Both the position numbers and the translations under genes were made by a program. Under the pieces are notes generated by a model, which saw only the letters and a program-made list of their open reading frames with translations, was not told where the DNA came from and did not search any database. From Ostreococcus lucimarinus (lineage: Eukaryota), in assembly GCA_000092065.1 (NCBI GenBank), contig CP000582.1: a stretch of 64,000 nt of DNA; one strand, written 5' to 3'. Shown here in pieces: positions 17,028-24,038 of this stretch (position 1 is its first letter; every line of letters begins with the position of its first letter).

Positions 17028-18557
17028 TTAAACTTCGAGCATCATTCTACGCGGGTCTTCAACAGACTCCTTAATCGACTTCAAAAATGTCACGGCTTCG
17101 CGACCGTCGACGAGGCGATGATCGTACGTCAACGCCACGTTCATCATCGGGCGCGCGACGATGGCGCGGTCGGCACCGACGCACACCGGACGCCAGACGA
17201 TTGAATGCATGCCCAAAATGGCGCTTTGCGGCGGGTTGATGATGGGAGTGCCCGTCAACGATCCAAACACGCCGCCGTTTGAAATCGTAAAAGTACCGCC
17301 CGCCATTTCGTCGATGGACAGCGTTCCATCGCGAGCCTTCTTACCGTACGACGCGATGGAGCTTTCCACGTCGGCGAAATTCATGCCTTCGCAGCTTCTC
17401 AACACCGGTACCACCAAACCCTTGGGCGCGCTCACCGCGACGGATATGTCAACGTAGTTTCTATACACGATTTCGTCGCCGTCGATGATGGCGTTCACCG
17501 AGGGCTCTTCCTGAAGCGCCTTCGCCGCCGCCTTGACAAAGGTACTCATGAAACCTAGCTTGACGCCGTGTTTTTCTAAGAATGCATCCTTGTACTCCGC
17601 GCGCATTTGCATCACGTTCGTCATGTCGATTTCGTTGAACGTGGTGAGCATCGCGTACGTGTTTTGCGAGCTCTTCAACCGCTCCGCGACGCGCAAGCGC
17701 AAGCGCGACATGGGCACGCGCGTCTCGGCGCGAGCGCCCGACGTGACTTTCGGCGCCGCCGGCGCGGGCGATGGCGCAGCGGTCGCTTTCGGCGCTTCCT
17801 TGGCCGGCGTCGCCGCGGCCATCGCCGCGGCCGCTGGCGCGGCCGAAGCTTGTTTCTCCGGCCCCGCCCCCGGAGCGAGCGTCGCCACCTTTTGACCGAC
17901 GGAGACGGTGTCGCCCTCCTTCGCGAGCACGTCCGTCACCGTCCCGCTCGTCGACGCGCGAACGTCTATGGTGACTTTATCCGTTTCAATTTGCGCGATC
18001 ACTTCGTCCATCGCCACCTTTTGACCCGGTTTCACGAGCAAAGCCGCGACGCTCCCCTCCGTGATGGAGTCGCCCATCGAAGGCACCTCAACGCTCACCG
18101 GCGCGCCGCTCGCCGCCTCCGCCTTGGGCGCCGCCGCGCCGCCCTTCCCCCCCTTTTTCCCGCCGACGCCCGGCGCGAACGCCATCACCGCTTGCCCCAC
18201 GTTCACCGTATCCCCCACCTTCGCGTCCACGCGCGTCACCGTCCCCCCGCTCGGCGCCCGCACGTCGATCGTCACCTTGTCCGTCTCGATTTGCGCCACC
18301 GTCTCATCCGTCGCCACCTCGTCCCCGACCGCCTTCGTCACGCTCGCCACCGCGCCCTCCGAGATCGAATCCCCCATCGACGGCACCGCGATCGTCTCCT
18401 CTCGCGTCGCCGTCCCGCCCTTGTGCCTTCGAATCATCGTCATCGCGTCGAATCCTCCGTCGCCGATCATCGCGCGCGCGCGCGCCCTCGTCGTCGCGTT
18501 CGCCGTCTCCGTCTCGTTCGCGCCGTCGCGCGTCGTTCCCGTCGTCGCGCGTCCCAT
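17028..18557 (-). CDS. dihydrolipoamide succinyltransferase (E2 of 2-oxoglutarate dehydrogenase, SucB-like) with two tandem lipoyl domains
   Basis: ATG at 18557. Two lipoyl-lysine motifs are present ([13 protein letters not shown] and [13 protein letters not shown]). The catalytic domain is near-identical in pattern to SucB ([34 protein letters not shown] ... [12 protein letters not shown]). Mitochondrial-type N-terminal presequence. Confidence 0.9.
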
Positions 18558-19053
18558 CGTTCGCGTCGCGTAGTGCGAGCGCTGGATACACTGGCGTCAT
18601 TCGCGCGTCGTCGATTCGTCAGTCCTCGTCGCGTCGTCGTCCGCTCGTTCGCCGAATCGCGTCGCGCGCGATCGCATCGCATTTAATCCAATCCGAATTC
18701 GAATCGAATCGCGCGCTCGAATCGCGTCGCGCGCGACGTCGCGCGTCGTCGCGCGTCGATCGTTCGCGCCCTCGCGTCGCGTCGCGCGCGCACCGTTCGA
18801 CGCGCGATCGCGTCGCGCGCGATCGCGCCGAGTCGTCGTCGCATCGCGTCGCGCTTTGGCAACGGTCGAGTCGCGGACCGACGGACGGCCGGGGACGGTC
18901 CGTGTGTCGCCTTCGCGGCGCCGCGTTCGGCGACGGCGCGTCGGCAAAACGCGCGGGACTCGACGACGACACAGGGCGTCGACTCGAGTCGCACCGCAAA
19001 GGCGCGCAGTGGTGCGACTCGTAACGCGACGGCGCCGCGAAGGCGCGAGAGAG

Positions 19054-21447
19054 ATGCGCGACGCCCGCGCGGAGGCACCGCGTCGTGGGAAAGATTTGAA
19101 ATTCGAATCGGCGTCGCGTCGAACGAGGGCGAGGGCGTCGCGCGAAGCGTTCTCGCCCGGGTCGAGCGCGTGCGCGTCCGAGCGTGGAAGTTTCGCGACG
19201 ACGACGACGGTCGAGAGCGCGTCGCGACGCGATGCGCGGGAATACACGCCGCCGCCGTTGACGGCGGAGGAGATCGCAGAGATGAACGAAGCCGTATCTG
19301 AGCTCGTCGTCGAGAGCTCCATCCCGTTCGCGTGGACGAGCTCGCCGGCGTTCTTCCGGTTCATGCACGCGCTTAGGCCTGAACTCTTCAGCGCCGCGGA
19401 GCGCGCGCGCATCGAAAGCGGCGCGGAGCTCGTCGACCAGCCCGAGAACCTTCGATGTCGCCGTTGGCACTCGACAGCCGGCGTCGACGGGTTGTACGAG
19501 AAACGTATGAAACGCGCCCTCCGTGCGCTTGAAGACTGGGAGGAGTTGGCGTTATCGGCGGATGGTTGGCAATCTGAAGATGGCGTGAAAGTACTAAACT
19601 TGTCCATAACGGTGAGAGAAACTGGTCGCGAGTACTACTGGAAGAGCGTCGAAATAGAAACGGAGTCAGAAAGCGCAGTGTTCATGCAACAGACCGCCGC
19701 GCAAGTGATGAAAGACCTCCCACTGAAGAAGTTCAAATGCATCATTGGGGACAACACCTCGCATGTCGTCAGCTTCTTGGAAGCTATCGCGGCTACTCCA
19801 GAGACATCTCACATTACTCCGATTGGTTGCTATGCACATCGTTTCAACTTGCTGGCTGGAGACGTCCACGAGACGTTCAAATTCTTATTTCTGGATCTAG
19901 AGCGGGCCATCAACAAGCTCCGTGTTCAGTCTCGAATGCGCGCGCTTTTCGACGCGGCGCGTAAAGAGAAGAATAGTAAGAAACAACTTGAGACGTACTG
20001 CCCAACGCGATGGGCGTCCGCGCATGCATGTCTACACAGCTACGTACTGAATATCGACGTGTTCAGATTTTTGGACGAAGACGACGGTGTGATCGCAAAA
20101 AATTTCCGTAAAATGTGTGAAAAAGACTCGGAATCAATCTTTAAAGTATTCTTTGACCGGGATTCGCAGATGGCAGTCCGTAGGTTAGAGCCCTTGTTCC
20201 GAGGTTTGGCGGCGGCAAACAAGTTTATGGAAGCTACTGGCGCTCATCTTGCGGAAGTCTTCCCGCTGTGCTGGGCACTAGAAAAAGACTTGAGACAGTG
20301 GCTCGCGAACGTGAAAACGAGTGCTCAACAGTCATGGATTGAACGTGCGACGCGCCAGTCATGGATTGAACGTGCGACGCGCCAGCCGACACGCGATGGA
20401 CTCACGACGCCTGAGCAATTATCAGACGTACTTCACCGAGTTTACAAAGTGCGATTCGAAGGACTGGAGGCACAGCCAGGTAACCCAAGCACGAAGCGCA
20501 CGCCGTTGCGAGACGAACCCCTCGTACATCTTGCATCATATTTGAGTTACATGATGCATGCGAGAATGCGTATCAAACATCAGTTCGTCGTGCCGGAAGT
20601 ATATGAAGCGAAAAAAGGTATCGGAAAGATTCATTTCCACTTGGAGGAAAAGAAAGCAGACGTGGAAGCAGCCAAAACGGCATTAGAAAAACTGAACGCG
20701 GTCACCTGTCCGAAAGCGGCACGACCCTACCGCGACGACTATCGCGTTCGCTTCATCGAGAATGACGCGTACATCCAAGCTTGCGCCGACAAAACGTTTG
20801 TGGACGTTACACTGGAGCAGCTTGAGTACATCAGGGCACACAACTGGTGGCGCAACTTCTTGGAGCCAGAATGCGTGCAAACCTGGCCTGCATGGAAAGA
20901 TCTAATTCCTTTCGCACGTCGTATAAACGCGATTGTTCCACATAGTGCGTCTGTTGAACGCATGAACTCGTCTCAGAAACTTGTGCACAACAAGAGGCTC
21001 AGCTTGAGCCACGCGAATGTCCAGAAGTTGTCTTTCATTTACTTCAATGCTAGGCATGAGCGCCGGTTATTCGCGAGTCCCTTTCATCGTTTGGTATCAG
21101 AGACATACGACGCAGCAGAAAGTCAAGTAGCCGCGAGTCCTGTGGTAGTTGTGGACAGCGACAGTGATGATGGAGTTGGTGAAGATGAAATCCTCTCGTC
21201 AGATGACGACGACTTAGACGAGTACTTAAAAGAGGTAGACGAGCTCGTCATGTCGCCACACGCAAACGTTTCGAATGGAACGGAAATGACAAGTTTAGGC
21301 AACCTCGATGAAACCGTGCCGGTACAGGATGATGTCTCGCATCCCACTCGGAACAAGGCAAAGGAAACTTTTGCACAGAAGACAGCTCGCAAGGCATTAG
21401 AGCGTCAAGAGAAGAAGAGACGTAGTAAGAGTAGAAGATTGCAATAG
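19054..21447 (+). CDS. hAT-family transposase (Ac/Tam3-like), apparently intact
   Basis: ORF open from 18856; in-frame ATGs at 19054 and 19282. hAT blocks are present: DGWQSEDG, CYAHRFNLL, PTRWAS, and the C-terminal hAT dimerisation domain WRNFLEPE...WKDLIPFARRINAIVPHSASVERMNSSQKLVHNKRLSLSHANVQKLSFIYFN. No BED finger seen. Confidence 0.8.
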   Translation: MRDARAEAPRRGKDLKFESASRRTRARASREAFSPGSSACASERGSFATTTTVESASRRDAREYTPPPLTAEEIAEMNEAVSELVVESSIPFAWTSSPAFFRFMHALRPELFSAAERARIESGAELVDQPENLRCRRWHSTAGVDGLYEKRMKRALRALEDWEELALSADGWQSEDGVKVLNLSITVRETGREYYWKSVEIETESESAVFMQQTAAQVMKDLPLKKFKCIIGDNTSHVVSFLEAIAATPETSHITPIGCYAHRFNLLAGDVHETFKFLFLDLERAINKLRVQSRMRALFDAARKEKNSKKQLETYCPTRWASAHACLHSYVLNIDVFRFLDEDDGVIAKNFRKMCEKDSESIFKVFFDRDSQMAVRRLEPLFRGLAAANKFMEATGAHLAEVFPLCWALEKDLRQWLANVKTSAQQSWIERATRQSWIERATRQPTRDGLTTPEQLSDVLHRVYKVRFEGLEAQPGNPSTKRTPLRDEPLVHLASYLSYMMHARMRIKHQFVVPEVYEAKKGIGKIHFHLEEKKADVEAAKTALEKLNAVTCPKAARPYRDDYRVRFIENDAYIQACADKTFVDVTLEQLEYIRAHNWWRNFLEPECVQTWPAWKDLIPFARRINAIVPHSASVERMNSSQKLVHNKRLSLSHANVQKLSFIYFNARHERRLFASPFHRLVSETYDAAESQVAASPVVVVDSDSDDGVGEDEILSSDDDDLDEYLKEVDELVMSPHANVSNGTEMTSLGNLDETVPVQDDVSHPTRNKAKETFAQKTARKALERQEKKRRSKSRRLQ
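20330..20383 (+). repeat. perfect 27-bp tandem duplication inside the transposase ORF (encodes QSWIERATR twice)
   Basis: The unit agtcatggattgaacgtgcgacgcgcc occurs twice consecutively. Confidence 0.9.
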
Positions 21448-21510
21448 ATAGACTAGCGCGCGACGTGAGTCGGTTTTCGCGCGGTTCTCGTCGATTCGCC
21501 ACCGTCGTGC

Positions 21511-21560
21511 CAGCTCGTACCAGCTCGTATCAGTTCGTATCATCTCGTATCAGCTGCGAT
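21511..21560. repeat. 5 x 10-bp imperfect tandem repeat (cagctcgtac/cagctcgtat/cagttcgtat/catctcgtat/cagctgcgat) followed by (gac)n
   Basis: Direct reading; located 64 bp after the transposase stop. Confidence 0.85.
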
Positions 21561-21639
21561 GACGACGACGACGACGACGAATGCGTACGGGTCGCGCGCG
21601 CGCGAAAGCTGCTCGATCGATCGCTCGATTATTACGATA

Positions 21640-22958: not shown

Positions 22959-24038
22959 TCACGCGCGCCCGCCGTCGCGCATCGTGCCCACGCACACGCG
23001 AAGGGCAAACTCTAACATGCGGATCGGGATGAGAAAGACGCTGATCGGAAACGGAAGCTTGAAGCCGTACATGATTTGCGACCAAAATCCCGTCATCGCG
23101 AGGACGAAGATGGCGAAATTGAAAACCGTTCCTTTTTCATCGATGACGTTTGGTCCGAGGTACTTGTGGCGGACGAGATACGTCAACAGCCCACGAGCAA
23201 AGAGTTGTGCGCCACGCGTTGCAGAGTGATACGCGGTGATGGCCTGCTGAACTAACCACGCCGCGATGACACCTATGACTTTACAGGCATATCTCACGCC
23301 AGGTCCAACCCATTTCTGATACTCCTTGGGCGTGCTCATCATCAACACGGGGGTGAGATTTTCATCGACGATGTTGTGCACGATGTCACCAACAGCGACA
23401 CCAAGAGAGACACACGCCGCGAAATGCACGCGTAATGTAGCCACGACGGCCACGAACCCCATGTAGATCGCACCCAGAGCATCTCCAACCTGTTCAGGAT
23501 CCATACTCTTGGCGACGACGCCAATCTTTCGAACCACCAACGCCTTCTTCGTAATCTCTTGCGTATCCGGAATGCCGTTGTGGTCTTCATCTAGCTCATC
23601 GTCCTTCAAGCTCGCGCGCTGCGCAGCTTCGATATTGCGCCATATTATCACCAAAGCGTCTCGAGTGTTCGCGTAGCCGGTGATTCTGTACGCCTCCACC
23701 GCCGCCGTGATCGTGGCAAAGTATCCGCCAAAGAAGCACAGGATGAATCCAACGATCGCCGGTCCAAACTCTTGCGGGTGGTACGGTTGCAGCGCGAGCC
23801 AGGTTTTCCGACAAAACTCAAACGTGGCCACGGCGTAGGGTTCAGATTGCGCCGCCAAACGGCTCGCGGCGACGAGGGCGGGGCCGGCTTTATCTAATAC
23901 CGTTGGGAGCGTCGTCAAGCCCGCGGTGACGACGGACGGCGACGGCGCCGACTGGGCGACGACGTGTTTCACCGGCGGCGCCGAAGGCGGTGATTTCGTC
24001 GCCTTGTTGGATTTCAATTTACGCGAAAACACGGACAT
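22959..24038 (-). CDS. hypothetical polytopic membrane protein
   Basis: ATG at 24038; 359 aa with at least 6 hydrophobic helices (IVGFILCFFGGYFATITAAV, IYMGFVAVVATLRVHFAACV, VIGVIAAWLVQQAI, FNFAIFVLAMTGFW, ISVFLIPIRMLEF). GC about 52%. No family recognised. Confidence 0.5.
   Translation of the reverse strand: MSVFSRKLKSNKATKSPPSAPPVKHVVAQSAPSPSVVTAGLTTLPTVLDKAGPALVAASRLAAQSEPYAVATFEFCRKTWLALQPYHPQEFGPAIVGFILCFFGGYFATITAAVEAYRITGYANTRDALVIIWRNIEAAQRASLKDDELDEDHNGIPDTQEITKKALVVRKIGVVAKSMDPEQVGDALGAIYMGFVAVVATLRVHFAACVSLGVAVGDIVHNIVDENLTPVLMMSTPKEYQKWVGPGVRYACKVIGVIAAWLVQQAITAYHSATRGAQLFARGLLTYLVRHKYLGPNVIDEKGTVFNFAIFVLAMTGFWSQIMYGFKLPFPISVFLIPIRMLEFALRVCVGTMRDGGRA

What the first reader, a model, noticed from the sequence alone, without database searches (positions are those of the whole stretch)
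19000..21560. Intact hAT transposase with foreign base composition, an internal 27-bp duplication and subterminal-like repeats
A full-length hAT transposase (about 720-800 aa, with all catalytic and dimerisation blocks and no stops) sits in the 68%-GC compartment. It is itself about 50% GC, which suggests recent insertion of an autonomous element rather than an old resident. It contains a perfect 27-bp in-frame tandem duplication (20330-20383). It is followed by a 5x10-bp tandem array (21511-21560) resembling hAT subterminal repeats. Its 5' side abuts a cgcgtcgcgcgcgatcgc-type repeat block (18.6-18.9 kb).
Basis: partly seen in the sequence, partly recalled or inferred. Interest (0 to 1): 0.6.

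Follow-up and report, generated by a model that had tools for sequence, protein, structure and literature searches.

The report
Immobilised young hAT transposon relic
This is a recently arrived but already crippled copy of a "DodoPi" hAT transposon in the marine alga Ostreococcus lucimarinus: the transposase reading frame is still open, but both transposon ends and the DNA-binding zinc finger are gone, so it is an ordinary, already annotated relic and not an active element.

Summary
The window is Ostreococcus lucimarinus CCE9901 chromosome 2. ORF 19054-21447 is exactly XP_001416135.1, "DodoPi transposase-like protein", so the gene is already annotated.

hAT membership is firm. The DDE, CxxH and RW residues are intact, a broadened profile hits Hermes at E=3e-33, and a pLDDT-88 model matches only Hermes.

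It is not autonomous. Full relatives from metagenomes are about 3.3 kb, with 13-bp TIRs (TAGGGGTGCAGCA), 8-bp target duplications and a CxxC...HxxHC finger. The window copy lacks about 556 bp at the 5' end and about 115 bp at the 3' end. It has no TIR, no duplication, and only a scrambled finger remnant. The 10-bp array is the family's real 3' subterminal repeat.

The insertion is lineage-specific: it is absent from syntenic sites in three related lineages and present in four wild contigs. It is young (about 1.3% derived change in the body) and shows no detectable purifying selection (omega about 1.3).

Unexpectedly, its 5' 0.5 kb carries 81 of 107 derived changes, mostly AT to GC. That region is 4-10% polymorphic against a 0-0.3% background.

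The parts
18656..18826 (.). CGCG-rich repeat block in the spacer between the divergent E2 gene (17028-18557, minus strand) and the hAT ORF. The 20-mer ATCGCGTCGCGCGCGATCGC occurs exactly twice, with two degenerate copies. This is host spacer, not recognisable element DNA, and it forms part of the hypervariable zone.
   Evidence: Searches show the repeats. One search finds only marginal similarity (z 2.4-3.3) between 18560-18880 and element 5' regions. Searches show 4-8% divergence from wild contigs here.
18904..19053 (+). Degenerate remnant of the part of the ancestral transposase gene that encoded the N-terminal CxxC...HxxHC zinc finger. The cysteine codons are lost, there are several indels, and GC is about 70%. 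It now lies upstream of the annotated start codon.
   Evidence: One search gives the alignment. In one search, window 18904-18991 aligns to L017 element positions 557-644 (z=12.8) and to L005 384-468 (z=12.6). One search gives a collinear 38-bp blastn hit.
19054..21447 (+). Open reading frame of 797 aa, identical to XP_001416135.1 / ABO94427.1 'DodoPi transposase-like protein'. It is the hAT transposase core without the N-terminal finger. Catalytic codons: D170 at 19561, D233 at 19750, C259/H262 at 19828/19837, R319-W320 at 20008, E635 at 20956.
   Evidence: exact match to the NCBI record; invariant residues; Hermes E=2.8e-33; pLDDT 88 model, top 12 fold hits all Hermes; coordinates.
19054..19600 (+). 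GC-eroded 5' part of the ORF (64.7% GC, GC3 0.75). It holds 81 of the 107 derived substitutions on this lineage: 59 AT-to-GC against 9 GC-to-AT, spread evenly over codon positions. Distance to the nearest full element falls stepwise from 0.39 to 0.13, then to about 0.03 after ~19550.
20329..20382 (+). Perfect 27-bp tandem duplication, in frame (QSWIERATR twice), within the all-helical insertion domain. It is polymorphic in the wild: present in L001/L002, absent in L003 and L021, and absent from all mobile relatives.
21448..21556 (+). Retained 3' untranslated part of the element. It ends with the family's 3' subterminal repeat array (CAGCTCGTAY units, 21505/21511-21555). Homology to complete elements ends at about 21556, and the last ~115 bp including the 3' TIR are missing.
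   Evidence: One search gives the alignment of 3' ends. One search shows the array has 3-5 copies at the same position in L006, L017, L018 and L020, and that GTAYC/GRTAC motifs are enriched in the element termini.

Best explanation
A DodoPi-family hAT transposon (full length about 3.3 kb) inserted into the ~0.4-kb spacer between the 2-oxoglutarate dehydrogenase E2 gene and a 353-aa gene. This happened in the lineage leading to O. lucimarinus, about 3.7 kb outside the low-GC region of chromosome 2.

Shown: the copy has since lost what it needs to move, namely both terminal inverted repeats, any target-site duplication, the 5' UTR and the N-terminal zinc finger. Inferred from Hermes: that finger binds the subterminal repeats. 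The copy therefore cannot be excised, and its protein probably cannot recognise transposon ends.

Shown: the relic is at high frequency or fixed in wild populations. Shown: the remaining 797-aa frame keeps the catalytic DDE/CxxH/RW residues. Inferred: it does so mainly because the copy is young (about 1.3% derived change in the body), not because the host uses it. Substitutions on this lineage look unconstrained.

Shown: the 5' end, which faces the E2 promoter spacer, is being rewritten towards host-like CGCG-rich sequence at 10 to 16 times the rate of the rest. The mechanism of that rewriting is not established.
For: Identity:
- The ORF is an exact match to XP_001416135.1, and the neighbours match XP_001416373 and XP_001416375 of O. 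lucimarinus CCE9901.

hAT membership:
- D170, D233, E635, C259/H262 and R319-W320 are invariant.
- The broadened profile hits Hermes at E=2.8e-33 over almost its whole length.
- The AlphaFold model has pLDDT 88 and pTM 0.88. Its top 12 Foldseek hits are all Hermes (E 6e-11 to 3e-8), and the next hit is above 0.01.
- Distant relatives pass the Pfam DUF659, Dimer_Tnp_hAT and zf-BED thresholds.

Mobile relatives:
- P0008 sits on five contigs as a 3312-bp unit with perfect 13-bp TIRs and different flanks on each.
- 8-bp target duplications are seen: GGTTTATG in L017 and GCGCCGCG in L010.

Truncation of the window copy:
- No TIR motif occurs anywhere in the window, and only low-complexity inverted matches flank the ORF.
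- 3' homology ends at ~21556, about 115 bp short of the TIR.
- 5' homology is significant only from 18904 onward.

Lineage-specific insertion:
- Syntenic loci L012/L013, L014 and L015 have orthologues of both flanking genes but no hAT (tblastn at E<=1 finds nothing).
- The L012 spacer is 378 bp. In the window, 429 bp of the spacer is not recognisable relic sequence.

Frequency:
- The copy sits at the same site in four independent wild assemblies, L001, L002, L003 and L021.

No constraint detected:
- Lineage-specific changes in 19600-21447 are 4.5 synonymous and 21.5 non-synonymous, omega 1.32. The 5' part gives 0.70.
- In simulation the frame stays open by chance with probability about 0.4 for each part.

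Single copy:
- There is one copy in the 64-kb window. It is the only NCBI protein among the family hits.
Against: - Every indel inside the ORF relative to mobile relatives is a multiple of three (+12, +27, -3, -3). So are the three indels that vary among wild contigs (3, 3 and 27 bp). That is more in-frame events than neutrality predicts. However, some may predate the insertion, and one lies in an ACG microsatellite.
- The catalytic residues are all intact.
- The lineage omega rests on only 26 substitutions, so it cannot exclude moderate constraint.
- I could not search the rest of the CCE9901 genome, so complete copies elsewhere are not excluded.
- Expression was not tested.
- The very uneven divergence along one insertion (0.39 falling to 0.03) is not explained by simple neutral decay.
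Confidence: 0.75

Rival explanations
1. Incipient domestication. The relic has been captured as a host gene. It would be transcribed from the E2 bidirectional promoter spacer, with a new start codon at an internal methionine, and its 5' end is being remodelled to host gene style. The finger-less transposase core would be kept for some host function or as a regulator of incoming DodoPi elements.
For: - There are no TIRs, and the copy is fixed or at high frequency at one site.
- All catalytic and dimerisation residues are intact.
- All seven ORF indels are in frame.
- GC skew changes sign at ~18.7-18.85 kb between the two divergent genes, as at a bidirectional promoter.
- The 5' 546 bp has acquired a host-like GC3 of 0.75.
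Against: - Lineage omega is 1.32 in the body and 0.70 in the 5' part.
- An open frame is expected by chance at this age.
- The copy is absent from three related lineages, so it has no long-term retention record.
- It lacks the DNA-binding finger, which (from my own knowledge of ZBED and DAYSLEEPER) domesticated hAT genes usually keep.
- A 27-bp duplication and other amino-acid variants segregate freely.
Confidence: 0.17
2. One reading: an intact autonomous hAT element that inserted recently and can still transpose.
For: - The frame is open and carries all catalytic blocks.
- The composition is native to the element.
- The 3' subterminal array is retained.
- Closely related elements (88-92% nucleotide identity) look mobile elsewhere.
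Against: - There is no TIR and no TSD.
- The 3' terminal ~115 bp and the 5' ~556 bp are missing.
- The zinc finger is destroyed.
- The position is identical in four wild assemblies.
Confidence: 0.03
3. Mosaic origin. An older, already GC-ameliorated DodoPi relic occupied this site, and its 3' 2 kb was later overwritten by gene conversion from a younger element. This would explain the stepwise divergence profile.
For: Distance to the nearest full element drops in steps rather than smoothly: 0.39, 0.28, then 0.13-0.14 across three bins, then 0.03 from ~19550.
Against: - The same 5' zone is also 10-50 times more polymorphic than its surroundings within the species today. That points to a process still running, not one old event.
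- No second DodoPi copy is known in this genome to act as donor.
- The site is empty in related lineages.
Confidence: 0.05

Closest known systems
Hermes transposase (Musca domestica hAT element; PDB 2BW3, 4D1Q, 6DWW, 8EDG)
   Same: - Same fold and catalytic layout.
- The profile match is E=2.8e-33 over Hermes residues 3-514.
- All top structural hits are Hermes, with TM 0.53-0.65 normalised to the target.
- The D, D, CxxH, RW and E motifs align with Hermes DLW, TDRG, CSSH, TRWNS and SER.
   Different: - Only about 13% sequence identity.
- The window protein has no N-terminal BED-type finger.
- It has a long acidic/basic C-terminal tail (about 130 aa, low pLDDT), and its insertion domain carries a 9-aa duplication.
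- Hermes is encoded by a complete element with 17-bp TIRs (my own knowledge); this copy has none.
Complete DodoPi-type elements in marine metagenomes (L006-L010, L017, L018, L020; proteins P0004-P0012)
   Same: - 63-86% protein identity and 77-92% nucleotide identity over 19102-21555.
- The same 3' UTR and the same CAGCTCGTAY subterminal array.
- The same base composition.
   Different: - They are 3.26-3.7 kb, with TIRs TAGGGGTGCAGCA or TAGGCCTGCTGCA and 8-bp TSDs.
- They have a ~370-bp 5' UTR and an extra N-terminal ~105-130 aa with the CxxC...HxxHC finger.
- They occur with many different flanks, some low-GC (44-54%) and one next to a copia-type integrase.
- The window copy has none of these terminal features.
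Domesticated hAT genes (ZBED family, DAYSLEEPER; from my own knowledge)
   Same: A single immobile hAT-derived open reading frame without TIRs, at a fixed chromosomal site.
   Different: - Those genes are conserved at syntenic positions across species under purifying selection, and typically keep the BED finger while often losing catalytic residues.
- Here the pattern is reversed: finger lost, catalytic residues kept.
- The gene is confined to one lineage, and omega is about 1.

Membership tests
hAT superfamily transposase (protein) | RNase H-like DDE catalytic core interrupted by a large all-helical insertion domain, as in Hermes | tested here: met
   D170, D233 and E635 are invariant in the family and nearly invariant in a 68-sequence alignment. 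The profile matches Hermes at E=2.8e-33. The pLDDT-88 model has Hermes as its only significant fold match.
hAT superfamily transposase (protein) | CxxH motif and RW motif between the second D and the E | tested here: met
   C259/H262 (CYAH) and R319-W320 (TRWAS) are invariant. They align to Hermes CSSH and TRWNS.
hAT superfamily transposase (protein) | C-terminal hAT dimerisation domain (Pfam PF05699) | tested here: inconclusive
   The Pfam hit is below threshold in all 13 family members (15 bits against a cutoff of 21.4; best E 6e-4). However, the Hermes alignment runs through this region (SAAxER...RNRL), and distant relatives found with the family profile pass the threshold.
hAT superfamily transposase (protein) | N-terminal BED-type zinc finger for end recognition | tested here: not met
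   It is absent from the window protein. Full-length relatives carry CxxC-x13-HxxHC. The corresponding window DNA, 18904-18991, is a scrambled remnant.
Autonomous hAT transposon (element) | Short terminal inverted repeats at both ends | tested here: not met
   There is no TAGGGGTG/CACCCCTA in the whole window, and only low-complexity inverted matches flank the ORF. Relatives have perfect 13-bp TIRs.
Autonomous hAT transposon (element) | 8-bp target-site duplication | tested here: not met
   None can be defined because both termini are missing. Relatives do show them: GGTTTATG in L017 and GCGCCGCG in L010.
Autonomous hAT transposon (element) | Subterminal short repeats near both ends | tested here: inconclusive
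   The 3' array is retained and is homologous to the family's array. The 5' subterminal region is absent.
Autonomous hAT transposon (element) | Multiple copies or polymorphic insertion sites in the host genome | not testable with these tools
   There is one copy in the 64-kb window, and it is the only NCBI protein in the family search. The rest of the CCE9901 genome could not be searched. The site is occupied in all four wild assemblies.
Domesticated (exapted) hAT gene | Orthologues at the syntenic position in other species | tested here: not met
   Three related lineages keep both flanking orthologues but have no hAT. One has a bare 378-bp spacer, and two have a TPT gene there.
Domesticated (exapted) hAT gene | Purifying selection on the coding sequence | tested here: not met
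   Lineage omega is 1.32 in the body (4.5 synonymous, 21.5 non-synonymous) and 0.70 in the 5' part. Pairwise omega to the nearest elements is 0.74-0.76. Power is low, and the in-frame indels are a weak counter-signal.

The most novel reading that the evidence does not exclude
The spacer plus the first ~0.5 kb of the relic (about 18.65-19.55 kb) is a narrow, currently active hotspot of GC-biased, clustered sequence replacement. It could be biased gene conversion or templated repair at the E2/hAT bidirectional promoter. It converts foreign ~50% GC DNA into host-style CGCG-rich sequence at least ten times faster than the adjacent 2 kb changes. Because the relic is young and its ancestral sequence can be reconstructed from mobile relatives, it would be a natural reporter for the force that keeps Ostreococcus gene 5' ends and spacers at 70-77% GC despite an AT-biased mutation spectrum.
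Probability: 0.35. Interest if true: 0.55.

Novelty: already known. Interest (0 to 1): 0.3.

Why it matters
As posed, the finding matters little. It is a TE-derived ORF that the 2007 genome annotation already calls a DodoPi transposase-like protein. This work shows it is a dead-ended copy, not an active transposon or a domesticated gene.

It adds three small things:
- It defines the DodoPi family as a bona fide hAT lineage and records its TIRs, 8-bp TSD, subterminal array and zinc finger, none of which I could find described in the searchable literature.
- It shows that a genome described as nearly TE-free (bioRxiv 10.1101/2025.04.21.649811) took up a hAT copy recently, just outside the low-GC region.
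- It exposes a sharply localised, GC-biased, highly polymorphic zone at the relic's 5' end. This zone could be used to measure GC-biased conversion in a picoeukaryote in which that process has so far been inferred only from genome-wide statistics (PMC5498103).

Tried and rejected
- **Pfam on the window protein alone.** DUF659 and Dimer_Tnp_hAT were both below the gathering score, so this was not enough for membership.
- **PDB search with the 13-member family profile.** No hit. Only after adding 61 distant relatives did Hermes appear.
- **First structure prediction, from the shallow alignment.** pLDDT was 36.8, which is unusable, so no fold search was run on it.
- **Literature search for 'DodoPi'.** It returned only unrelated word fragments. 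The two Ostreococcus genome papers (PMC1544224, PMC1863510) are not held.
- **Reconstructing the exact insertion point.** I tried aligning the window spacer to the empty-site spacers of L012-L016. Only low-complexity GC-rich matches came back, so no target site could be defined.
- **Searching for TIR-like inverted repeats around 18.3-21.9 kb.** The 178 pairs found were all 70-80% matches of CGCG-type low complexity.
- **Testing whether GC-rich spacers are hypervariable in general.** Rejected. Other 70-77% GC spacers differ by 0-0.7% between the window and wild contigs.
- **Testing whether the hypervariable zone reflects linkage to the divergent low-GC haplotype.** Rejected. The 3.5 kb between the relic and that boundary is 0-0.3% divergent.
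- **Using population dN/dS on the body.** Uninformative, because 19600-21447 is almost identical among the wild contigs.
Full report
**Where the window comes from**

Exact look-ups place the window in Ostreococcus lucimarinus CCE9901, on an 895,087-bp record that I take to be chromosome 2.
- The E2 succinyltransferase at 17028-18557 (minus strand) is XP_001416373.1.
- The 359-aa protein at 22959-24038 is XP_001416375.1.
- The ORF in question, read from its first ATG (19054-21447, 797 aa), is XP_001416135.1 / ABO94427.1, named 'DodoPi transposase-like protein'.

The object is therefore already annotated. A text search for 'DodoPi' found no paper in the held library, and the two genome papers are not held.

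**Checking the observation**

- An uninterrupted frame runs from 18856 to 21447.
- The body 19600-21447 is 49.9% GC. The upstream spacer 18558-19053 is 69.8% GC, and the sequence from about 21.6 kb onward is 68-76% GC.
- TRF reports a 27-bp unit at 20329-20385, 2.1 copies, 100% identical. The duplication is in frame and repeats QSWIERATR.
- TRF also reports a 10-bp unit, CAGCTCGTAT, at 21511-21555, 4.5 copies, 85% match.
- The upstream block contains the 20-mer ATCGCGTCGCGCGCGATCGC exactly twice, plus two degenerate copies. Its 18-mer core occurs twice in the window against 0.07 expected.

Two qualifications apply.
- The 'high-GC compartment' is a mosaic. Gene bodies are 53-60% GC, and spacers and gene 5' ends reach 70-77%. 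The cleaner contrast is at third codon positions: 0.55 in the hAT body against 0.68-0.82 in neighbouring genes.
- The protein is not full length for its family (see the section on missing parts).

**Is it a hAT transposase?**

Pfam alone is not convincing. DUF659 scores 29 bits against a cutoff of 34.7, and Dimer_Tnp_hAT scores 15 bits against 21.4. All 13 family members are similarly sub-threshold. A profile of those 13 finds nothing in the PDB.

I then searched 1.84 billion representative proteins with the family profile. There were 614 hits at E<=0.001 and 143 at E<=1e-10.
- Several distant full-length hits pass the Pfam thresholds for DUF659 and Dimer_Tnp_hAT, and one also passes zf-BED.
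- In a 68-sequence alignment headed by the window protein, the nearly invariant residues are the hAT signature: DGW, DN, CxxH, TRW and ER.
- The profile of that alignment matches Hermes transposase (6DWW, 4D1Q, 2BW3, 8EDG) at E=2.8e-33 over Hermes residues 3-514.
- An AlphaFold model built from it has mean pLDDT 88 and pTM 0.88.
- The model's top twelve Foldseek hits in the PDB are all Hermes chains (E 6e-11 to 3e-8), and the next hit is above 0.01.

In the window protein the catalytic residues are D170, D233 and E635, with C259/H262 and R319-W320. All are intact. Protein-level membership of the hAT superfamily is therefore well supported.

**What a complete family member looks like**

Only 13 protein clusters are close relatives, and all but the window's own cluster contain only metagenome sequences.
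- P0008 (67% identical) lies on five contigs as the same 3312-bp unit. It is bounded by perfect 13-bp inverted repeats, TAGGGGTGCAGCA...TGCTGCACCCCTA, and each contig has different flanks. L010 shows the 8-bp duplication GCGCCGCG.
- A metagenome scan added L017, a 3289-bp element flanked by a perfect 8-bp duplication, GGTTTATG. It also added L018 and L020, which have TAGGCCTGCTGCA-type ends.
- Complete elements have a ~370-bp 5' UTR and an ORF of 890-919 aa. The N-terminal 105-130 aa contain a CxxC-x13-HxxHC finger.
- Every complete element carries 3-5 copies of CAGCTCGTAY about 115 bp inside the 3' TIR. GTAYC/GRTAC motifs are concentrated in both terminal 200-250 bp.

**What the window copy lacks**

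- The motif TAGGGGTG/CACCCCTA does not occur anywhere in the 64 kb. The inverted repeats found around the ORF are only CGCG-type low complexity.
- At the 3' side, the window aligns base for base with complete elements from the stop codon through the array. It then diverges completely at ~21556, about 115 bp short of the TIR.
- At the 5' side, solid nucleotide homology to the nearest elements (92% to L004, 88% to L005) starts at 19102.
- Upstream of that, a heavily diverged but significant remnant covers 18904-18991. It aligns to L017 element positions 557-644 with z=12.8 against shuffles. These are the codons of the zinc finger, now with the cysteine codons gone and several indels.
- Further upstream there is only marginal similarity (z 2.4-3.3).

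About 556 bp of the 5' end are therefore missing or unrecognisable, and the annotated start codon is an internal methionine of the ancestral protein (GAREM). The copy cannot be excised. By analogy with Hermes, whose BED domain reads the subterminal repeats (my own knowledge), its protein probably cannot recognise transposon ends either.

**Age and distribution**

Four independent wild assemblies carry the relic at the same place between the same neighbours, at 98% protein identity: two Tara contigs of 134-145 kb, one ENA contig and one JGI contig.

The related lineages tell a different story. Three have E2 proteins 77-82% identical to the window's and the same gene order (acetyltransferase, 359-aa gene, 31x-aa gene, E2, ABC1, CobW, and so on).
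- The site holds either a bare 378-bp spacer (L012/L013) or a TPT transporter gene (L014, L015).
- tblastn with the hAT protein finds nothing in these loci even at E<=1.
- Orthology of the flanking genes was confirmed.
- The window spacer minus the recognisable relic is 429 bp, close to the 378-bp empty spacer.

The insertion is therefore specific to the O. lucimarinus lineage. I polarised substitutions using L004, L005, L006 and L011. The window lineage has 107 derived changes, but only 25 of them fall in the 1850 bp from 19600 to the stop. That is about 1.3%, similar to the 26 derived changes on the L004 lineage. The copy is young.

**Selection**

- Pairwise omega is 0.74-0.76 to the nearest elements and 0.35-0.48 between distant elements.
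- On the window lineage alone, the body has 4.5 synonymous and 21.5 non-synonymous changes, giving omega 1.32. The 5' 546 bp gives 0.70.
- I re-placed the observed substitutions at random on the inferred ancestor. The frame stayed open in about 40% of trials for each part, so the open frame is not evidence of function.
- The upstream extension of the frame (18856-19053) lies in DNA so GC-rich that several overlapping frames on both strands are also open.
- The one counter-signal is that all indels in the ORF are multiples of three: +12, +27, -3 and -3 relative to the elements, and 3, 3 and 27 among wild contigs.

I therefore regard neutral decay of a young relic as most likely (0.75). Incipient domestication remains a minority possibility (0.17).

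**The 27-bp duplication**

It is absent from every mobile relative and from wild contigs L003 and L021. It is present in the reference and in L001/L002, where it has already acquired point differences from the reference copy. It arose after insertion, it is segregating, and it sits in the variable part of the insertion domain. It is consistent with relaxed constraint and has no evident function.

**An unexpected feature**

Divergence along this single insertion is extremely uneven.
- Distance to L004 in 100-bp bins from 19054 is 0.39, 0.28, 0.13, 0.14 and 0.13. From ~19550 onward it is about 0.03.
- Eighty-one of the 107 derived changes lie in 19054-19600. Of these, 59 are AT-to-GC and 9 are GC-to-AT, spread evenly over codon positions.
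- This raises the segment to 64.7% GC and GC3 0.75, which is host-like.

The same zone is highly polymorphic today.
- Over 16 kb the reference and the wild contigs differ by 0-0.3%, including in other 70-77% GC spacers.
- In 18654-19253 they differ by 4-10%, and in the flanking 300-bp bins by 1-2%.
- The differences are clustered multi-nucleotide replacements that often create CGCG runs. They are shared mosaically among independently assembled haplotypes, and 65 of the 85 variable sites are W/S.
- GC skew changes sign at ~18.7-18.85 kb between the divergent E2 and hAT genes.

Published population genomics of O. tauri inferred GC-biased gene conversion and frequent multi-nucleotide polymorphisms genome-wide (PMC5498103). 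A local conversion or repair hotspot at this bidirectional spacer is therefore a reasonable hypothesis, but I did not test it. A mosaic origin through an older relic plus a later conversion is less likely, because the process appears to be ongoing.

**Context noticed on the way**

- The window and wild contig L001 are identical up to 25142, the start codon of the acetyltransferase gene. After that they are completely unrelated, although both become low-GC.
- L001's continuation (2OG-Fe(II) oxygenase, protein kinase, RPE65) is syntenic with the other species.
- The reference instead continues with an Omp85/Toc75-like gene and a single 11,392-aa modular polyketide synthase ORF.
- This looks like the two-haplotype, recombination-suppressed low-GC region described for O. 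tauri chromosome 2 (PMC5498103). The giant PKS loci are noted in bioRxiv 10.1101/2025.04.21.649811.
- The relic lies about 3.7 kb outside that region, in normally recombining, almost invariant DNA.

**Verdict**

The sequence observations are real, and the hAT assignment is correct and now well tested. The interpretation as an intact autonomous element is wrong: this is a solitary, young, terminally truncated and finger-less DodoPi relic, already annotated in GenBank. As a finding it is ordinary. The only part worth a specialist's second look is the narrow GC-biased hypervariable zone at its 5' end.

Noticed in passing
window 18354-19553 (peak 18654-19253): A local hypervariable zone. Divergence from four wild O. 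lucimarinus-type contigs is 4-10%, against 0-0.3% over the surrounding 16 kb. The differences are clustered multi-nucleotide, mostly W/S replacements, shared mosaically among haplotypes. The zone coincides with a strong AT-to-GC substitution excess on the relic's 5' end.
   Followed up: partly
window 25142/25143: The reference and wild contigs L001 and L003 are identical up to the acetyltransferase start codon. The reference and L001 are then completely unrelated (no blastn or tblastx match anywhere in the window), and both turn low-GC at this point. L001's side is syntenic with other species. This looks like the boundary of a two-haplotype, mating-type-like low-GC region (PMC5498103).
   Followed up: partly
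window 29676-63854 (minus strand): A single uninterrupted ORF of 11,392 aa (46.5% GC, GC3 0.44) fills the low-GC part of the window. Its N-terminal 5000 aa contain repeated KS, KR, PP-binding and DH domains plus a Condensation domain. It is a giant modular type I PKS with an NRPS-like domain.
   Followed up: partly
window 18558-21639 compared with L014 6757-7932 and L015 6571-7842: In two related lineages a triose-phosphate-transporter-family (TPT) gene sits between the E2 gene and the 31x-aa gene, exactly where the hAT relic sits here. The window has no TPT match at all, and a third lineage (L012) has neither gene.
   Followed up: partly
L020 3255-3300: The 3' TIR of one DodoPi element is followed after exactly 8 bp (CCCGGGAT) by the 5' TIR of another. 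This could be a head-to-tail junction, an adjacent insertion or an assembly artefact.
   Followed up: no
L006-L009 and L018 flanks: The left and right flanks of the same element on one contig usually do not form a target-site duplication. Only L010 and L017 do. This suggests that metagenome assemblies join flanks of different copies, so the element is multi-copy in its hosts. The left flank of L018 encodes a copia-type integrase.
   Followed up: no
P0005; L004 ~330-392: P0005 looks like a recombinant or an assembly chimera. Its N-terminal half resembles P0006 and its C-terminal half is identical to the window type. L004, the closest full-type element, has a premature stop in its N-terminal region, so its called ORF starts late.
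   Followed up: no
window 17607-19607, several frames: Long overlapping ORFs of 283-359 aa occur on both strands in the 70% GC spacer and gene 5' ends. They are by-products of composition, not genes, and the 18856-19053 extension of the hAT frame is the same kind of by-product.
   Followed up: no
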